This document shows positions 7,806-48,669 of a stretch of 64,000 nt of DNA, piece by piece (position 1 is the stretch's first letter; each line of letters opens with the position of its first letter). A program made the position numbers and the translations under genes. The stretch is from positions 25,236,001 through 25,300,000 of the forward strand of contig CM075987.1 in NCBI GenBank assembly GCA_038087875.1, in the 5' to 3' direction. The notes under the pieces were generated by a model. The model did no database searches and was not told the origin of the DNA. It saw nothing but the letters and a program-made list of their open reading frames with translations. Source of the stretch: Malacoraja senta (lineage: Eukaryota).

Positions 7806-8474
7806 CTTAGTTTAGTTTAGAGATCCAGAGTGGAAACTGGCCCTTCTGCCCACCGAGTCCGCACCGACCAGCGATCCCCGCACACTACCACTATCCTACA
7901 CACACTTCTTCTTCTGTCGTATGTCTTTTAGACCTGCAGCTCCGTTGAGGCGAGCCAGGCCAACGTGTCATCGTCCAGGTCAATCAGACCTTGTTCACCA
8001 TTTGGTGGCCGGTGTTTGGGGCAACTGGTGACTATGTCTGTGTTGGGTCCCCACACTCGCAGGAGGCACTCGCTGTACACGAGGCCCCACCTCTTCATCG
8101 CTACTCCATAACGTCCGATGCCTGTCCTCAAGCGGTTGAGGGTTGTCCACTGCTTTCGGGGCAGGTCCTGGCCTGGGACGTCCATGAGGTCATCGATGTA
8201 ATGGTGTAGCCTAGATGGTTCCGCTGACTTCCACTGGTCTCTCCATCTTGTCTTGACACACACGAGGGACAATTTACACATACACCAAGCCAATTAACCT
8301 ACAATAGTGCACGTCTTCGGAGTGTGGGAGGAAATTGAAGATCTCAGAGAGAAACCCACACAGGTCACGGGGAGAACGTAGAAACTCCGTACAGTCAGCA
8401 CCCGTAATGGGGATCGGACCCGGGTCTCCGGCGCTGTAAGGCAGCAACTCTGCCGCTGCGCCACCGTGCCGCCC
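7806..8474 (-). mobile_element. HE1 SINE interrupted by an RTE-X fragment
   Basis: SINE 3' half 7806-7905 and 5' half 8256-8474; ACACACAC duplicated around the insert. Confidence 0.85.
7906..8255 (-). mobile_element. RTE-X-like LINE 3' fragment with (GAA)n tail
   Basis: Encodes W..QW..A..........PGQDLPRKQWTTLNRLRTGIGRY...MKRWG and zinc-knuckle remnant IVTSCP; ends CATACGACAGAAGAAGAAG; TSD ACACACAC 7898-7905/8256-8263. Confidence 0.8.
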
Positions 8475-8580
8475 TTAATTGTGAAAGTCGCCCTTAATGA
8501 GCAAGGACTGCACTTGACCCTCCCTTGAATGAATGGATGTGTTGAATGGGTACCACATGAAGAGGTCTGGCAATAGACTT

Positions 8581-8724
8581 CTTCTTCTTCTTCTTCTTCT
8601 TCTTGCGTATGGCGTGCACAGCCTAAAGTTGTAGGACAACTTGTTCTATTTGATCTTATTTGATTGTGCACGCCAGGTTGATTGCATTCGTCGAAACAGG
8701 GTGAAGGTTGCAATCTTCCACCCC
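8581..8724 (-). mobile_element. Short non-autonomous retroelement family A (HDV-ribozyme head, hairpin body, (GAA)n tail), copy 1
   Basis: 11-bp TSD GCAATAGACTT (8570-8580, 8725-8735); homologous copies at 32738 and 48034; no tRNA A/B boxes. Confidence 0.88.
8680..8724 (-). ncRNA. HDV-like ribozyme remnant (internal ~9-nt deletion)
   Basis: GGGGTGG-AA-GATTGCA-ACC-TTCAC[del]CCT-GT-TTCGA-CGAA-TGCAATC; P2 perfect; G1 abuts the TSD. Confidence 0.65.
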
Positions 8725-9449
8725 GCAATAGACTTGCCTTTAGTTGTTTGTGAGAGCATATTTTAATGCAGGAGAGAAAAAAAAATGTTTTTGTCTTTCC
8801 TTTGTAAAAATAATCTGGCAAATTTGCAGCAGCGATGACTGTAGTTCCCAGATGATCCCGCCATTCCCAAATGCCAGCACTCAGCATGGATATGCAATGT
8901 TTATCCAATTAATGTTGCTTCCTAGCAACTAGTCATGTGTCCTTGTACTGAAACATCTTGCTGAATTACTCCTTAGATATTGTCTCAAACAGGATGATAA
9001 CTTATTGCTATAAATAAAGTAGTGGTATTAAGATCTGCATGGGCAGCCGTTTATCTAAAATGTTTTATTTATTCCTGCAGTGTTTCAAGCGATACAAATT
9101 ACAAATCACTGGACAGAAATTAAAACTGTTCCAACCCATATTTCAGTTTTGAAGGAAAACTTTGAAAATTTCAACATAATATTTCAGACAAATTTCAAAG
9201 ACATGCCGTCTTTTCTAAGAGAAGTTCACAAGTTCAGAAGCGGTTGGAGCAGAATGAGGCCATTCGGCCCATCAAGTCTACTCCGCCATTCAATCATGGC
9301 TGATCTATCTCTCCCGCCTAACCACATTCTCCTGCCTTCTCTCCATAACCCCTGACACCCGTACTAATCAAGAATCTACCCATCTCTGCCTTAAAGGTAT
9401 CCATCGACTTGGCCTCCACAGCCTTCTGTGGCAATGAATTCCACAGATT

Positions 9450-32067: not shown

Positions 32068-32737
32068 CGACTCCATTTACACCTGACGCTGCCTCGGCAA
32101 GGCCAGCAGCATAATCAAGGACCAGTCGCACCCCTGGCCACTCCCTCTTCTCCCCTCTCCCATCGGGCAAAAGGTACAGAAGTGTGAAAACGCACAGCTC
32201 CAGATTCAGGGACAGTTTCTTCCCAGCTGTTATCAGGCAACTGAACCATCCTACCAACAACCGGAGAGCAGTCCTGAACTTCTATCTACCTCATTGGAGA
32301 CCCTCGGACTATCTTTGAATGAACTTTACTGACTGAACCTTGCACGAAACGTGATTCCCTTTATCGTAAATCTGTCCCAAATGCAGGTAAGTATTGACAG
32401 CAAAAGGAAGAGAGAAACTGGATTCAAAGGCAAGGATGTGGTTATTTTTTTTTTAGATGAGTTTAGTTTATTGTCACATGTACCGAGGTACAATGAAAAG
32501 CTTTTGTTGTGTCTTAACTAACCAGTCTGCGGAAAGACAATATGTGATTTCAATCGAGCCATCCACAGTGTACAGATACACGATACAGGGAATAACGTGA
32601 ATAATGTTTAGTGCAAGATAAAGTCCAGTAGAGTCAGATCAAAGATAGTCTGAAGGTCTCCAATGAGGTAGATAGTAGATCAGGCCTGCTATGTATTGTT
32701 GGTAGGATGGTTCAGTTGCCTGATAACAGCTGGGAAA

Positions 32738-32863
32738 GGGGGTCGGAGATTGCAACCTTCACCTGTTTCGACTAATGCAATCAACCCGACGTGCACAAAC
32801 AAGATCAAATACAACAAGTTGACCTACAACTTTAGTCTGTGCATGCCAGACGCAAGAAGAAGA
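32738..32863 (+). mobile_element. Short retroelement family A, copy 2
   Basis: TSD AGCTGGGAAA (32728-32737, 32864-32873); GGGGGTC-GGA-GATTGCA-ACC-TTCAC[del]CT-GT-TTCGA-CTAA-TGCAATC head; (GAA)n tail. Confidence 0.85.
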
Positions 32864-34520
32864 AGCTGGGAAACATAGTCCCTGTGCCACCCTGGAAGTT
32901 CCCGCTTCCAATATGTTGTAAAATTCAATTATTTCTGGTAGCATCAACCACGTGCCAGCAAACATCAGAGGTGGTCGATCTATTTTATTTTCCTCCACAT
33001 TTTCTCCCCAATGCCTTGGTTTCAATCGAAATCGCCAACCTAGTAAAAGAGCAATCAACTCCCATTGAGAGTGTTGGAACTAGATAGCACACAAGTCATT
33101 CTACTGAAAGTGCATTATTGCCCAAGCTTGCCATTCCTTAAGCCGCGGTAAACTCAATGGTGTGAAATTTGAGTAAAAGATTATAGTAAAGATTAAGGAT
33201 TTTTTTCTTCATGTCGGGCCAAGTATTTGTCATACATGGTGGAGTGAACCTTTTGTTTATCTGTTACTGTTTTAAAGTTGGTTGCAAGGACACATGCAAC
33301 TACCGCCCCTTTCCCTCAGTTGCCCTGTAGCCCTCTCCCCTCCCTTCTCACGTTACATTATTGCTCATTTTTCCGTGCCCATTTCAAAATTCAGGTAAGC
33401 AAGCAATCTCTTTCATTTCCCTTGTTACAGTGGTTGATGCTACCAGTGAGAATTTGAATGTTACCACATGCTGGAAGCAGGAACTTCCAAGGCAGCTCCA
33501 GGCAGGTTGCGTGGGATAGTGCTGGAGTACAGGTGTGGAATCTGTGGGCCGAAGGGCCTGTTTCCTCGTTGTATCTCTAAACTAAACCCGGACAATTTTG
33601 CAAGTTGGAACTGGCACCACCCAACAATATATTTAAATAAAAACAGAGGCCAACGTGTTATTTAACCAGGCCCCTTCACTCAAACCTAGTCAAATAGCTC
33701 TGCAAAGATGCAATGATACTGCTGTGAATCAGGGCAGATGATGACTGCAGTCTTGCAACAGTCAGTAAACCCAACCCCGACAGTCTTCCCAATCACTCGT
33801 TTGTATGTAGGAGTTAGTCTGATGAAGGGGCTCGACCCCAAACGTCACCCATTCCTTCTCTCCAGAGATGCTGCCTGCCCCGCTGAGTTACTCCAGCCGT
33901 GGGTTTAAACATAAGTTTGGTGTTCGTAACCTGTGAACAGGGGAGTAACTAGCATGGAACTCAGTCAAAGGATGGCTGTTTTACAGGCTACCAAACGCGG
34001 GAATTTGGAGCGTGGGAGAATTTTTAAGGATCTTAAAGTTTAACCTGGTTCTAAAATTGAGGGTATTAGTTAGGACTAACCTAGATTTTTTTTTTCTGGA
34101 ATGCCAGAATTCAAGGGGAGACCCAATAGAAGTATGCAAAATTATAGGAACATAGATAGGTTCTGACTGTATGTCCTTTTCCCCCCCCAGGAAATGTCAA
34201 AGACTAGAGGGCACAGCTTTGAAGGGGAGAGGGGCCAAGTTTAAAAGTGATGTGCAGGGCAAGATTTTTACCATAAGTGAAAATAGATACAATTGTGAGA
34301 CCTCGGTGAAATAAATCAAAGTCTATTAGAAATCAGGGAGGAGATTGCAGAGGCTTTGATTTTTAATCCACCCTTGCTAGGGGGGTTGATGCCAAGATTG
34401 GAGGACCACTTGTGTTGTTATGGAGGAAACAATACAACAGTAATTTCAGGCCTGTTAGTTTAATTTCTTTTCAGGGCATGTTAAATAAGGAGAATACATT
34501 CTATCGAGCAATGTTAACTA

Positions 34521-46410: not shown

Positions 46411-48033
46411 TGTAAACAAGAGGTCTCCGTCTTTAGGGTGGTCCAGTGGTGCAGTGGTAGAGCTGCCGCCTTACAGCGCCAGGGACTCGGGTTCCATCCT
46501 ATCTGTGGGTGCTGTCTGTACAGAGTTTGTACGTTCTCCCCGTGGCCTGTGTGGGTTTTCTCCGGGTGCTCCGGGTTCCTGTCTCGCTCCAAAGACGTGC
46601 GGGTTTATCGTTTAATTGGCTTCAGTAAAATTGGAAATTGTGTGTGGGATAGTGTTAGTGTGCGGGGATTGCTGGTCAGCGTGGGTCTATAAAATCCCCT
46701 CTCAATTCCAGTGAATACAAACCCATTCTTTCACCATGTGTCTGTCCCGCCATCCCGGGAGTTAACCTGGTGAACCTACGCTGTACTCCCTCATCGGGAA
46801 CATGTTTCCTGGCGAGTCCAATCCCTTATTAATCTTATATGTTTCAATAAGATTCCCTCTCATCTGTCTCAATTCCAGAGTATACAAGCCCAGCCGCTCC
46901 ATTCTATCAACATATGACAGTCCCGCCATCCCGGGAATTAACCTGGTGAACCTACGCTGTACTCCCTCAATAGCAAGAATGTCATTCCTCATATTAGGAG
47001 ACCAAAACTGCACACAATATTCCAGGTACTCCAGACTCGCTGGGCCAAAGGGTCTGTTTCCATGCTGTATCTCTAAACTAAACTAATCTTCTGAGAAGGT
47101 TGGAGATCCTGGAGAGCAGAACCTGATTGATAGAGGCAGACCTGGTTCATTCAATTGTTTTTCCAACTGATTTTATTCAAGCCAACCTTTGCTCAGATTG
47201 TCTCATATCCATTTCAGAACCATAACTGCGCGGACCTTTTGTAATTTAGAGCAATTGTACATGTTTAAATTGAATGTATCAAACAAATTGATAACATTTA
47301 ATCAGAATGACTCAGTTGGCAGAGCGCTAGCCTCGGTTAGATTGTAAAACTGACGCTATCCTCGCAGAATCTGAAATAGCCTTCTGAGCATCATGCAATA
47401 GATGATGTGAATTGACAAAGGACCTGAAGGTATACGAAACATGCATATGTATTCTACCAGCAATGTATCAGTTCGCATTCCCTCTACTGTACTTTACAAT
47501 GTATGTTCCCTTCAATCAAATGCAGGGGGAAATAAATAACCTTTACACATGTAGGAATGGGAAATACAGAAAGGAGGCAAATGTCTGATTGCAGACATAA
47601 AATGCTGGAGTATCTCAGGGGGACAGGCGGCATCTCTGGAGAGAAGGAATGGGTAACGTTTCGAGCCGAGACCCATCTGACCCGAAGACCCAAACAAGGG
47701 TCTCGACCCGAAACGTCACCCATTCCTTCTGTCCAGAGGTGCTGCCTGTCCCGCTGAGTTACTCCAGCTTTTTGTGTCTATCTTCAGTTTGGACCAGCAT
47801 CTGCAGTTCCTTCCTACACAAATGACTGATTGAGGTGAGTGCACTTTTAAACGTTGATTCAGTGAATCAATTCACCTCCTGTTTCAATGACGAGCAAGAA
47901 CTGTGTCCAACTCGATGCAAAGTCCTTTTGCAACAGAGCAATCTAGGTGTGGGAGCAGGGGGTAGAAAACAGAATGTGTAGGAAGGAACTGCAGATGCTG
48001 GTTTACACCGAAGATAGACACAAAATACTGGAG

Positions 48034-48168
48034 CCTTCTTCTTGCGTATGGCGTGCACAGCATAAAGTTGCAGGACAACTTGTTCTATTTGATCTTATTT
48101 GATTGTGCACGCCAGGTTGATTGCATTCGTCGACCACGTGAAGGTTGCAATCTCCCACCCTGGATGTA
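48034..48168 (-). mobile_element. Short retroelement family A, copy 3 (nested in a Penelope pLTR)
   Basis: TSD AAAATACTGGAG (48022-48033, 48169-48180); head AGGGTGG-GA-GATTGCA-ACC-TTCACGT-GGT-C[del]GA-CGAA-TGCAATC. Confidence 0.85.
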
Positions 48169-48669
48169 AAAATACTGGAGTAAGTCAGCGGGACAGGCAG
48201 CATCTCTGGAGAAAAAGAGTGGGTGACGTTATGGTCTCGACCTGAAGCGTCACATATTCCTACTCTCCAGAGATGCTGCCTGTCCCACTGAGTTACTCCA
48301 GCGTTTTGTGTCCAACTTCTGTAGAAAGCGGAGGCCTGTCATGAGAGGCAGCCTGCTCGAGATTTATCATCGCTCATTCCGTGTCTTTGGAGGAATTGGT
48401 TCTCAATCTGTTTACCATAATCAATTGAATTTGTGTTTTGCGCCCTGTTTGAAAGATTATGTATTTGCCAAATGAGTTTTTCATTCTTACGACCGCCAAT
48501 TTTTTTTTTCAAAATCGGATTACGTTTCAAGCACTGTGGAGTAACATGCTTTATCCTTTCAACTAAAACCACCAATTATATGATCAACAAACAAAGCATT
48601 TTCGAAGAGCGCAAGAGACCGCACAAATGCCTGCTCTGAAGGCGATTTGTTTTTCTTCACTTTCAACTA

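What the first reader, a model, noticed from the sequence alone, without database searches (positions are those of the whole stretch)
8581..8724. Family A: complete minimal HDV ribozyme reconstructed from complementary deleted copies
Seen: this copy has ...ACCTTCAC|CCTGTTTCGACGAA, the copy at 48119-48161 has ...ACCTTCACGTGGTC|GACGAA. Their union is GGGGTGG-RA-GATTGCA-ACC-TTCACGT-GGT-CCACCCT-GT-TTCGA-CGAA-TGCAATC: 7-bp P1 with the canonical G1.U wobble, 7-bp P2, 3-bp P3, CPEB3-type L3 and J1/4, P4 reduced to 5 nt (~54 nt in all). The body forms an 11-bp stem TGGCGTGCACA/TGTGCACGCCA enclosing AAGTTGT-CCT-ACAACTT. The reconstruction is inference; no intact copy lies in the window.
Basis: partly seen in the sequence, partly recalled or inferred. 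Interest (0 to 1): 0.75.

Follow-up and report, generated by a model that had tools for sequence, protein, structure and literature searches.

The report
Self-cleaving ribozyme heads a SINE family

Summary
Window 8581-8724 (minus strand) is one complete insertion of a ~135-nt SINE-like non-LTR retroelement with an (AAG)n tail and an 11-bp target-site duplication. Copies at 48035-48160 (-) and 32738-32865 (+) are further insertions. All three carry different 9-11-nt deletions in the 5' head. The intact 54-nt head has every sequence-readable feature of an HDV-like ribozyme: G1.U wobble, 7-bp P1, 7-bp P2, 3-bp P3, an L3 identical to that of mouse Cpeb3, P1.1, and catalytic C in a CGAA junction. 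P4 is reduced to 5 nt. Target-site duplications place the element's 5' end at or within 1 nt of G1, the predicted cleavage site. A longer, low-copy relative carries the same head, and several short forms look like independent internal deletions of it. Rfam models do not detect the motif, cleavage was not tested, and the reverse-transcriptase partner was not read. This is a new, P4-less, vertebrate-type member of the known class of ribozyme-headed non-LTR elements (R2 SIDEs, L1Tc/NARTc, RTE).

The parts
8581..8724 (-). Copy 1: complete insertion of the SINE-like element (144 nt including tail), subfamily A, with a 9-nt deletion in the ribozyme head
   Evidence: BLAST to intact copy L092 gives 92% identity over 8599-8724.
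8680..8724 (-). Ribozyme remnant of copy 1 (45 of 54 nt). G1 is at 8724. P1 5' strand, J1/2, P2, P3 5' strand, J4/2 CGAA and P2 3' strand are kept. G25 to C33 (end of L3, P3 3' strand, first part of P1 3' strand) are lost, with the junction between 8701 and 8700.
   Evidence: compared with intact copies
8605..8679 (-). Body and 3' domain of copy 1: outer 11-bp stem (plus-strand 8665-8675 with 8610-8620) enclosing the hairpin AAGTTGT-CCT-ACAACTT (8626-8642)
   Evidence: The intact-copy 3' domain folds at -18.1 kcal/mol, z -2.60.
8581..8604 (-). (AAG)8 tail of copy 1
8725..8735 (.). Target-site duplication of copy 1, 5' side (AAGTCTATTGC on the element strand)
8570..8580 (.). Target-site duplication of copy 1, 3' side
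48035..48160 (-). Copy 2: insertion with an 11-nt deletion (C31 to C41; junction between 48132 and 48131). It lacks G1, and 8 extra nt (48161-48168) lie between the TSD and the element. The TSD CTCCAGTATTTT is at 48169-48180 and 48022-48033.
32738..32865 (+). The TSD AGCTGGGAAA is at 32728-32737 and 32864-32873.

Best explanation
The finding is one dead copy of a ~135-nt non-autonomous non-LTR retroelement, SINE-like and more exactly SIDE-like (a short internally deleted element). Its first 54 nt encode a minimal, P4-less HDV-like self-cleaving ribozyme. Its last ~40 nt plus (AAG)n form the 3' module, presumably the part recognised by a LINE reverse transcriptase. Proposed mechanism (inferred): the element has no recognisable promoter and is transcribed as part of host or read-through transcripts. 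The ribozyme folds co-transcriptionally and cuts immediately 5' of G1, which frees an RNA that starts exactly at the element's first base. A LINE-encoded enzyme binds the 3' stem-loop and AAG repeats, nicks a target and reverse-transcribes to the RNA 5' end. That gives full-length copies flanked by 9-16-bp target-site duplications. The three window copies lost 9-11 nt of the catalytic core at short direct repeats (CAC..CAC, TC..TC). This happened either by reverse-transcriptase slippage on the folded RNA or after insertion, and these copies should be unable to self-cleave. Shown: the family, its copy number, its boundaries, the fold-compatible sequence, the deletions and a longer relative with the same head. 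Inferred: catalysis, co-transcription, the partner enzyme and the origin of the deletions.
For: (1) Retroelement anatomy. All 3 window copies have TSDs and an (AAG)n tail. The 3'-tail pattern gives 4,813+4,817 matches in the genome. (2) The 5' end falls at the predicted cleavage site. I took 68 copies chosen only by their 3' tail (70 fetched, minus 2 segmental duplicates). Conservation jumps from about 30% upstream to G1 in 57 of 68. Of the 68 copies, 43 had a P2 anchor and a TSD of at least 9 bp. In 18 of those 43 the element starts exactly at G1. In 19 it starts at +1, and 16 of these have a TSD ending in G, so G1 is equally possible. Three start at +2 or +3, and 3 carry 2-3 extra nt. (3) Fold. 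RNAfold's minimum-energy structure of an intact natural 54-mer is exactly P1 (1-7/30-36) plus P3 (17-19/27-29), and P2 (10-16/48-54) forms in the full-length fold. G1.U36, C22-G37 (P1.1), U20/G25, C44 and A46-A47 are all in place, and C44 is kept in 63 of 68 copies, the 5 exceptions being T. (4) Not chance: descriptor hits are 0 in the window, 0 in 7 Mb of random sequence and 0 outside the family in 727 kb, while 26 of 68 copies pass with perfect pairing. (5) The only Rfam hit in a 101-nt scan is an HDV-type ribozyme model (RF02682). It aligns end to end from G1 to the last P2 base with P4 skipped, but the score is weak (12.4 bits, E 2.4). (6) Module conservation between subfamily majority sequences: the ribozyme differs at 1-2 of 54 columns, the tail at 0-1 of 36 and the middle at 6-24 of 45. 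(7) A longer relative carries the same head followed by at least 209 nt of other sequence (5 of 20 loci; 26 genomic matches, 7 spanning all 209 nt). At least three short forms join that head to the common tail at different points. (8) Contigs from four other public runs, of four coded organisms, cover only the element. They diverge into unrelated flanks at places 118-120 (G1 = 120) and 255-259. (9) Precedent: HDV-like ribozymes process the 5' ends of R2, L1Tc, RTE and Baggins elements and their non-autonomous derivatives (passages read; listings). P4-less HDV-like ribozymes cleave in vitro (passages).
Against: No Rfam HDV-type family reaches its gathering score. There is nothing in the window, nothing at E<=1 in 6 intact 3-kb loci, and 0 of 20 short intact loci at E<=10. 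The nested-only folding energy of the 54-mer is not better than shuffles (z +0.92), though pseudoknots are not modelled. There are no compensatory double changes. Variation among copies is mostly CpG decay (positions 24/25, 31/32, 41/42, 44/45), so covariation neither supports nor tests the helices. My descriptor was written after seeing the sequence and from recalled family features. A uniform 5' end is also what an internal-promoter SINE would show. Only assembled contigs were on offer, so no RNA 5' end could be observed. The partner LINE and its reverse transcriptase were not read. Copies with a deleted core still have TSDs and start at G1, so the deletion must have arisen after cleavage or after insertion; otherwise cleavage is not required.
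Confidence: 0.75

Rival explanations
1. The HDV-like head is an inactive relic or a purely structural element, for example a protein-binding or translation-related pseudoknot inherited from the parent element. The 5' end would then be set by a transcription start, not by self-cleavage.
For: Uniform 5' ends are also typical of promoter-driven SINEs. Core-deleted copies still start at G1 with TSDs. Rfam models do not recognise the motif. According to review passages, the 5' folds of R2 and L1Tc have also been proposed to act like IRESes.
Against: Every catalytic-core position is kept in all subfamily majority sequences, whereas the adjacent body diverges. I saw no tRNA-, 7SL- or 5S-like head in the sequence, but this was by eye and no promoter scan was run. 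Core-deleted forms are rare and scattered over different backgrounds rather than forming expanded lineages: 67+5 exact matches against 3,004 exact intact cores.
Confidence: 0.15
2. The resemblance to an HDV-like ribozyme is a chance arrangement of complementary segments in an ordinary repeat.
For: The nested-only folding z-score is unremarkable, and there are no significant Rfam hits.
Against: There are 0 descriptor hits in 7 Mb of random sequence and 0 outside the family in 727 kb. The motif starts exactly at the TSD-defined first base. L3 is identical at 7 of 7 positions, in the same register, to a proven ribozyme.
Confidence: 0.02
3. The three window copies descend from amplifying master elements that already carried the deletions. 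In that case the 'complementary deletions' would mark viable subfamilies, not damage.
For: The CAC|(C)CTG forms recur 67 times and the GGTC|GAC form 5 times in the genome.
Against: The 14 deleted copies inspected, of the 17 loci fetched, lie in mixed backgrounds: J1/2 is AA or GA, J4/2 is CGAA or CTAA, and the body is of A or B type. Each has its own TSD, which fits recurrent events at short direct repeats. They amount to about 2% of the exact intact cores.
Confidence: 0.08

Closest known systems
R2 SIDEs (short internally deleted elements of R2, Drosophila; PMC3414825, abstract seen)
   Same: Non-autonomous derivatives that keep the parent's 5' HDV-like ribozyme and its 3' end. The ribozyme defines the 5' end by cutting a co-transcript.
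   Different: R2 and its SIDEs insert site-specifically in 28S rDNA at low copy number. This family is dispersed at varied target sites with 9-16-bp TSDs, has about 10^4 copies, an (AAG)n tail and a P4-less ribozyme.
L1Tc / NARTc of Trypanosoma cruzi (PMC3185411, PMC4035085; abstracts seen)
   Same: A LINE and its truncated non-autonomous version share a 5' HDV-like ribozyme that releases the element RNA from longer transcripts. They are dispersed and multicopy.
   Different: In L1Tc the same 77 nt also act as an internal promoter (Pr77). No promoter function is known or tested here, and both host and ribozyme sequence are unrelated.
HDV-like ribozymes of RTE and Baggins non-LTR elements (Ruminski et al. 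2011; the paper is not held, so known only through review passages)
   Same: Promoter-less elements transcribed within introns or read-through RNA, with a 5' ribozyme and simple-repeat tails in RTE-type elements.
   Different: Insect elements with their own ORFs. Whether the parent here belongs to RTE or another clade was not determined.
Minimal (P4-less) HDV-like ribozymes, drz-Mtgn and theta ribozymes of gut phages (bioRxiv 10.1101/2023.06.13.544163, passages read)
   Same: A double-pseudoknot core without the P4 domain. Such RNAs cleave in vitro and are inactivated by the C-to-U change at the first J4/2 position.
   Different: Those are phage and metagenome RNAs next to tRNA genes, and that preprint reports finding minimal forms only in phage genomes. 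Here the minimal form heads an animal retroelement.
Mammalian CPEB3 intronic ribozyme (PMC4836649; PMC10919898)
   Same: Same register from G1 to J1/4. L3 UUCACGU at nt 20-26 is identical at 7 of 7 positions. P1.1 has one C-G pair plus U-U. J4/2 is 4 nt and starts CG. The remaining identities (GGGG start, CCCUGU, full CGAA) are recalled, not taken from a call.
   Different: CPEB3 is a single-copy intronic sequence with an 18-nt P4 hairpin and different helix sequences. Rfam's library, which I recall includes a CPEB3 model, gives no hit here. The shared bases are the functionally constrained ones, so convergence is at least as likely as descent.

Membership tests
HDV-like self-cleaving ribozymes | P1 helix starting at the cleavage-site G1, with a G1.U wobble | tested here: met
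   GGGGTGG pairs with CCRCCCT over 7 bp (G1.U36; U5.G32 or U5-A32). It is the RNAfold minimum-energy helix.
HDV-like self-cleaving ribozymes | P2 helix crossing P1 (outer pseudoknot) | tested here: met
   GATTGCA (10-16) pairs with TGCAATC (48-54) in 7 Watson-Crick pairs. It forms in the full-length fold, and each base is kept in 60-65 of 68 copies.
HDV-like self-cleaving ribozymes | 3-bp P3 closing L3, with the U...G pair and the C that forms P1.1 with J1/4 (inner pseudoknot) | tested here: met
   ACC/GGT closes L3 TTCACGT (U20, C22, G25), and J1/4 is GT (G37 can pair with C22). The same residues are named for CPEB3. Pairing was read from the sequence, not probed.
HDV-like self-cleaving ribozymes | Catalytic cytosine at the first position of J4/2, followed by the two adenosines | tested here: met
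   C44-G/T45-A46-A47. C44 is present in 63 of 68 copies and A46 and A47 in 64 of 68 each.
HDV-like self-cleaving ribozymes | P4 helix | tested here: not met
   Only TTCGA (5 nt) lies between J1/4 and J4/2. P4 is not essential to the family, since P4-less natural forms cleave, so this marks a minimal variant and does not exclude membership.
HDV-like self-cleaving ribozymes | Site-specific self-scission 5' of G1 | not testable with these tools
   The evidence is indirect only: TSD-defined element starts fall at G1 or +1 in 37 of 43 copies. Only contigs were available, so no RNA ends could be seen.
HDV-like self-cleaving ribozymes | Match to curated covariance models (Rfam HDV-type families) | tested here: not met
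   No hit at gathering score. Nothing at E<=1 in 6 loci and 0 of 20 loci at E<=10. The best hit is RF02682 at 12.4 bits against a gathering score of 44.
Non-autonomous non-LTR retroelement (SINE / SIDE) | Target-site duplications of variable sequence flanking a unit with constant ends | tested here: met
   All 3 window copies have them. Of 68 sampled copies, 43 had a TSD of 9 bp or more, 19 had the anchor but no TSD found, and 6 were truncated or rearranged.
Non-autonomous non-LTR retroelement (SINE / SIDE) | Simple-repeat 3' tail and 5'-truncated copies | tested here: met
   (AAG)2-8 tails. Examples of 5'-truncated copies are L017, L037 and L094.
Non-autonomous non-LTR retroelement (SINE / SIDE) | Shares its ends with an autonomous, reverse-transcriptase-encoding parent | tested here: inconclusive
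   A longer relative shares the 5' head and about 45 further nt. Its interior and 3' end could not be fetched, so no ORF was read.
CPEB3 ribozyme family | Single conserved copy in a CPEB3 intron, with a P4 hairpin | tested here: not met
   There are thousands of dispersed copies, and the 18-nt P4 is replaced by 5 nt. Only the single-stranded core matches.

The most novel reading that the evidence does not exclude
This family, or its parent LINE, is a surviving relative of the retroelement lineage from which the mammalian CPEB3 intronic ribozyme was exapted. The identical L3, P1.1, J1/4 and J4/2 in the same register would then reflect descent rather than convergence. On this reading the 54-nt head is also the first natural P4-less HDV-like ribozyme known from a eukaryotic genome.
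Probability: 0.1. Interest if true: 0.8.

Novelty: new member of a known kind. Interest (0 to 1): 0.55.

Why it matters
If cleavage is confirmed, this would be a very compact (54-nt) natural HDV-like ribozyme that defines the 5' ends of about ten thousand retroelement copies in a large animal genome. It would show that P4-less 'minimal' forms, reported so far only from phages and metagenomes, also work in eukaryotic mobile elements. It would also be a clear dispersed, high-copy example of promoter-less, ribozyme-processed retrotransposition, whereas R2 is rDNA-specific. Because its single-stranded core is identical to that of the CPEB3 ribozyme, it gives a concrete sequence family with which to test the retroelement origin of that mammalian ribozyme. 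In practice, genome annotators would otherwise call this an unclassified SINE, and Rfam-based scans miss it.

Tried and rejected
(1) Partner LINE hunt. I used patterns that demand the ribozyme or the tail next to non-SINE sequence. These returned only rearranged SINE copies or another SINE subfamily: 2 hits; 7; 15, of which 12 are subfamily C; 8. L040 and L011 have no LINE-like ORF beside the element. The L011 junction occurs once in the genome, so it is not a LINE 3' end. L086/L120 is a 5'-truncated tail inserted into an unrelated Penelope-like reverse-transcriptase fragment.

(2) One search then revealed a longer relative.

(3) Metagenome scans for the long element's 26-mer and for the 35-nt ribozyme core found 0 stretches.

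(4) RNA evidence. All 24 runs offered were assembled contigs, which cannot show RNA starts. Run X18 is only guessed to be RNA, so I make no claim about expression. Contigs from two runs enter the element from flanks that look orthologous, but with fewer than 31 nt on the element side.

(5) Rfam scans gave nothing at threshold.

(6) The protein atlas, searched with a neighbouring LINE reverse-transcriptase ORF to place the host taxon, was uninformative.

(7) Earlier findings of this scan contain nothing on this genome or this sequence.

(8) Covariation analysis was not pursued. Copies decay neutrally after insertion, and the variable sites are CpG transitions.

(9) Key papers were not held: Webb 2009, Ruminski 2011, Riccitelli 2014 and Jimenez 2015. 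What I say about them comes from other papers' text or from recall. Full-text searches found no report of an HDV-like ribozyme in a cartilaginous-fish or other fish SINE, but that library lacks most subscription journals.

Full report
**Observation**

On the minus strand, window 8581-8724 reads, 5' to 3': GGGGTGGAAGATTGCAACCTTCAC|CCTGTTTCGACGAATGCAATC, then AACC, then TGGCGTGCACA...AAGTTGT-CCT-ACAACTT...TGTGCACGCCA, then TACGC, then (AAG)8. The copy at 48035-48160 reads GGGTGGGAGATTGCAACCTTCACGTGGTC|GACGAATGCAATC and continues with the same body.

It has its own deletion (TTCAC|CTG). BLAST of an intact copy against the window finds these three copies and no others.

The joined core exists. GATTGCAACCTTCACGTGGTCC with up to 2 mismatches gives 4,846+4,860 matches in the 1.94-Gb assembly, and the reversed-pattern control gives 0. 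The eight loci first fetched all carry the full 54-nt head in the predicted order.

**What the unit is**

Each window copy is flanked by a direct repeat of the target:
- Copy 1: 11 bp, at 8570-8580 and 8725-8735.
- Copy 2: 12 bp.
- Copy 3: 10 bp.

Each copy ends in (AAG)n. The 3'-tail pattern occurs 4,813+4,817 times with up to 3 mismatches.

To look at the 5' end without bias, I took 70 copies chosen only by an exact 34-nt 3' tail (30 loci, 40). I dropped two segmental duplicates (L033, L084), which left 68. In their alignment the majority base stands at 18-25 of 68 at positions -5 to -1. At the base just before G1 it is T in 34 of 68. At G1 it is G in 57 of 68, and through the head it is 45-67 of 68.

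The TSD scan sorted the 68 copies as follows:
- 6 lacked the P2 anchor (truncated or rearranged).
- 19 had the anchor but no TSD of 9 bp or more.
- 43 had both the anchor and a TSD.

Among those 43 the element starts as follows:
- Exactly at G1 in 18.
- One base later in 19. In 16 of these the TSD ends in G, so G1 is equally possible.
- At +2 or +3 in 3.
- With 2-3 extra bases in 3.

The unit is therefore a short non-LTR retroelement of about 135 nt plus tail. It is present on the order of 10^4 times, and its RNA template begins at or within 1 nt of G1.

**The head as a ribozyme**

In element numbering the head reads:

| Segment | Positions | Sequence |
|---|---|---|
| P1 5' strand | 1-7 | GGGGTGG |
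| J1/2 | 8-9 | RA |
| P2 5' strand | 10-16 | GATTGCA |
| P3 5' strand | 17-19 | ACC |
| L3 | 20-26 | TTCACGT |
| P3 3' strand | 27-29 | GGT |
| P1 3' strand | 30-36 | CCRCCCT |
| J1/4 | 37-38 | GT |
| P4 remnant | 39-43 | TTCGA |
| J4/2 | 44-47 | CGAA (CTAA in one subfamily) |
| P2 3' strand | 48-54 | TGCAATC |

RNAfold's minimum-energy structure of a natural intact 54-mer is exactly P1 plus P3. In the full-length element P2 forms instead. This is what a nested-only algorithm does with a pseudoknot. For the same reason its z-score of +0.92 carries little information.

The positions needed for catalysis in this family are all present. These are G1.U36, U20 and G25, C22 opposite G37, C44 at the start of J4/2, and A46-A47. 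C44 is kept in 63 of 68 copies, and the five exceptions are T.

The CPEB3 NMR paper names U20.G25, C22 (P1.1), A23, a P1.1 of one G-C plus one U-U pair, a 4-nt J4/2 and the catalytic C following G56. A published mouse Cpeb3 primer that starts 18 nt from the cleavage site reads GTTCACGTCGC. L3 is therefore identical at 7 of 7 positions and in the same register.

A strict descriptor that I wrote from recalled family features, after seeing the sequence, gave these results:
- 0 hits on both strands of the window.
- 0 hits in 7,000,000 random bases with the window's dinucleotide content.
- 0 hits outside this family in 726,864 bases of held sequence, against 39 within the family.
- 26 of the 68 sampled copies pass it with every pair perfect.

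Rfam speaks against an easy classification. No family reaches its gathering score. Six intact 3-kb loci give no HDV-type hit at E<=1, and 0 of 20 short intact loci give one at E<=10. The only trace is RF02682 (an HDV-type ribozyme model) at 12.4 bits, E 2.4, in a 101-nt scan. It does, however, align end to end from G1 to the last P2 base with P4 skipped.

**Subfamilies and a longer relative**

At least three short forms exist:
- Form A, with CGAA and the body ...ATCAAATAAGATCAAATAGAACAAGTTGTCCT.
- Form B, with A32 and the body ...AACARAAGATCAAAYAGAAC.
- Form C, with CTAA and the body ...ATAGATGTAGTGTTTTGGTGTC joined directly to TACAACTTTAGG.

I compared majority sequences built from 32 A, 8 B and 5 C copies, out of 87 copies extracted:

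| Module | Columns | Differences between subfamily pairs |
|---|---|---|
| Ribozyme head | 54 | 1-2 |
| 3' tail | 36 | 0-1 |
| Middle body | 45 | 6-24 |

I fetched 20 of the 127 places that match a form-C body string:
- 5 continue past GGTGTC into at least 209 nt of unrelated sequence, behind the same ribozyme head.
- 2 do so briefly.
- 4 are form C.
- 6 are a fourth short form, joined at GTTTTG|TTAGGCTG.
- 1 is a fifth form, also seen in L026.
- 2 are otherwise rearranged.

That 209-nt stretch has 26 matches in the genome. Seven span all of it, at 90-92% identity to the query, the query itself included.

The picture is a low-copy long element whose 5' head and 3' end are retained in several independent internal-deletion derivatives. 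This is the SIDE pattern described for R2. Whether it encodes a reverse transcriptase, and of which clade, remains open.

**The deleted copies**

Copy 1 lacks G25-C33, copy 3 lacks one base more, and copy 2 lacks C31-C41. Genome-wide, the CAC|CCTG form occurs 32 times exactly and the CAC|CTG form 35 times (67 in all). The GGTC|GAC form occurs 5 times. These counts include the window's copies.

The 14 deleted copies inspected, of the 17 loci fetched, each have their own TSD. They lie in mixed backgrounds: J1/2 is AA or GA, J4/2 is CGAA or CTAA, and the body is of A or B type. This fits recurrent deletion between short direct repeats (CAC at 22-24 and 31-33 in A32 templates; TC at 29-30 and 40-41). 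It does not fit amplifying deleted masters.

Whether the deletions arise by reverse-transcriptase slippage on the folded RNA or after insertion is an inference that I could not test. That all three window copies are deleted, when roughly one copy in ten of the sample has an indel in this region, may be coincidence.

**Other organisms**

All runs on offer were contigs. Runs of five further coded organisms hold a share of the locus's words (0.20-0.29) about equal to the element's share of the stretch. Four runs were laid:

| Run | Coded organism | Contigs laid |
|---|---|---|
| X3 | B | 18,579 |
| X6 | D | 9,288 |
| X9 | E | 17,429 |
| X18 | C | 1,042 |

The contigs cover the element part only. 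They diverge into unrelated sequence at places 118-120 (G1 = 120) and 255-259. The only frequent variants inside the head are at positions 32, 42 and 45. The family, with the same boundaries and core, is therefore shared by several related organisms.

**Mechanism and rivals**

The best-supported reading is a promoter-less element that is co-transcribed with host RNA. The ribozyme frees it at G1, and a LINE enzyme copies it after recognising the conserved 3' stem-loop and AAG repeats. The intact-copy 3' domain folds at -18.1 kcal/mol (z -2.60; 2 of 200 shuffles fold as well).

The main rival is that the head is a relic or a purely structural element and that a transcription start sets the 5' end. 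This rival is not excluded, because uniform 5' ends fit both readings and no RNA ends could be observed. Chance is excluded. Confidence is about 0.9 that this is an HDV-like fold heading a retroelement, and about 0.7 that intact copies actually self-cleave.

**Comparison and novelty**

HDV-like ribozymes at the 5' ends of R2, L1Tc, RTE and Baggins elements, and of non-autonomous derivatives (R2 SIDEs, NARTc), are established (listings; passages). The kind is therefore known. Three things are new here:
- The host: an animal genome whose other repeats I recall as typical of cartilaginous fishes. This was not tested.
- The dispersed copy number of about 10^4.
- The loss of P4, which one preprint reports only from phage genomes.

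The single-stranded core is also identical to that of CPEB3. My full-text searches found no description of such a fish element. Several key subscription papers could not be read, however.

I file this as a new member of a known kind. A low-probability but interesting possibility is that it is related to the source of the mammalian CPEB3 ribozyme.

Noticed in passing
window 8401-8475: Just upstream of copy 1 on the plus strand lies a stretch that looks like the tRNA-related part of a tRNA-derived SINE (…GGATCGGACCCGGGTCTCCGGCGCTGTAAGGCAGCAACTCTGCCGCTGCGCCACCGTGCCGCCC). The same kind of sequence flanks L021.
   Followed up: no
window 47981-48034 and 48161-48300: Copy 2 sits inside another abundant repeat that has a long internal inverted repeat (…CTGGAGTAAGTCAGCGGGACAGGCAGCATCTCTGGAGA… / …TCTCCAGAGATGCTGCCTGTCCCACTGAGTTACTCCAG…). 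The same repeat appears in several fetched loci, for example L017 and L136.
   Followed up: no
68 sampled copies (alignment), position just before G1: The base immediately 5' of G1, which is target DNA and not part of the element, is T in 34 of 68 copies (A 16, G 11, C 7). Many TSDs begin with A, AG or AAG. Both suggest a target-site preference or microhomology with the AAG tail at integration.
   Followed up: partly
L060 (G000:C1294), element loop region: One copy carries an insertion of about 190 bp exactly in the CCT loop of the inner hairpin. The insertion has terminal inverted repeats (TGTAGCGG…CCGCCACA), so it may be a small DNA transposon.
   Followed up: no
L120 5965-7218 (G000:C1): This stretch holds fragments of at least two unrelated reverse-transcriptase elements. 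One is a Penelope-like RT region (…SLYTSIPHKEGL…LNNFSLDSSHFLQI…). A 5'-truncated 34-nt tail of the family is inserted into it.
   Followed up: partly
G000:C2 about 100.43-100.73 Mb; L141 and L142: Five form-C/D copies lie 65-87 kb apart. L141 and L142 have identical TSDs and flanks but opposite orientation, which indicates large recent segmental duplications, some of them inverted. L032/L033 and L083/L084 are further duplicated loci.
   Followed up: no
L006 2559-2644: There is a weak Rfam hit to the mir-551 precursor (30.6 bits against a gathering score of 51; E 0.0022) about 1 kb from a SINE copy. It is probably a chance hairpin in a repeat.
   Followed up: no
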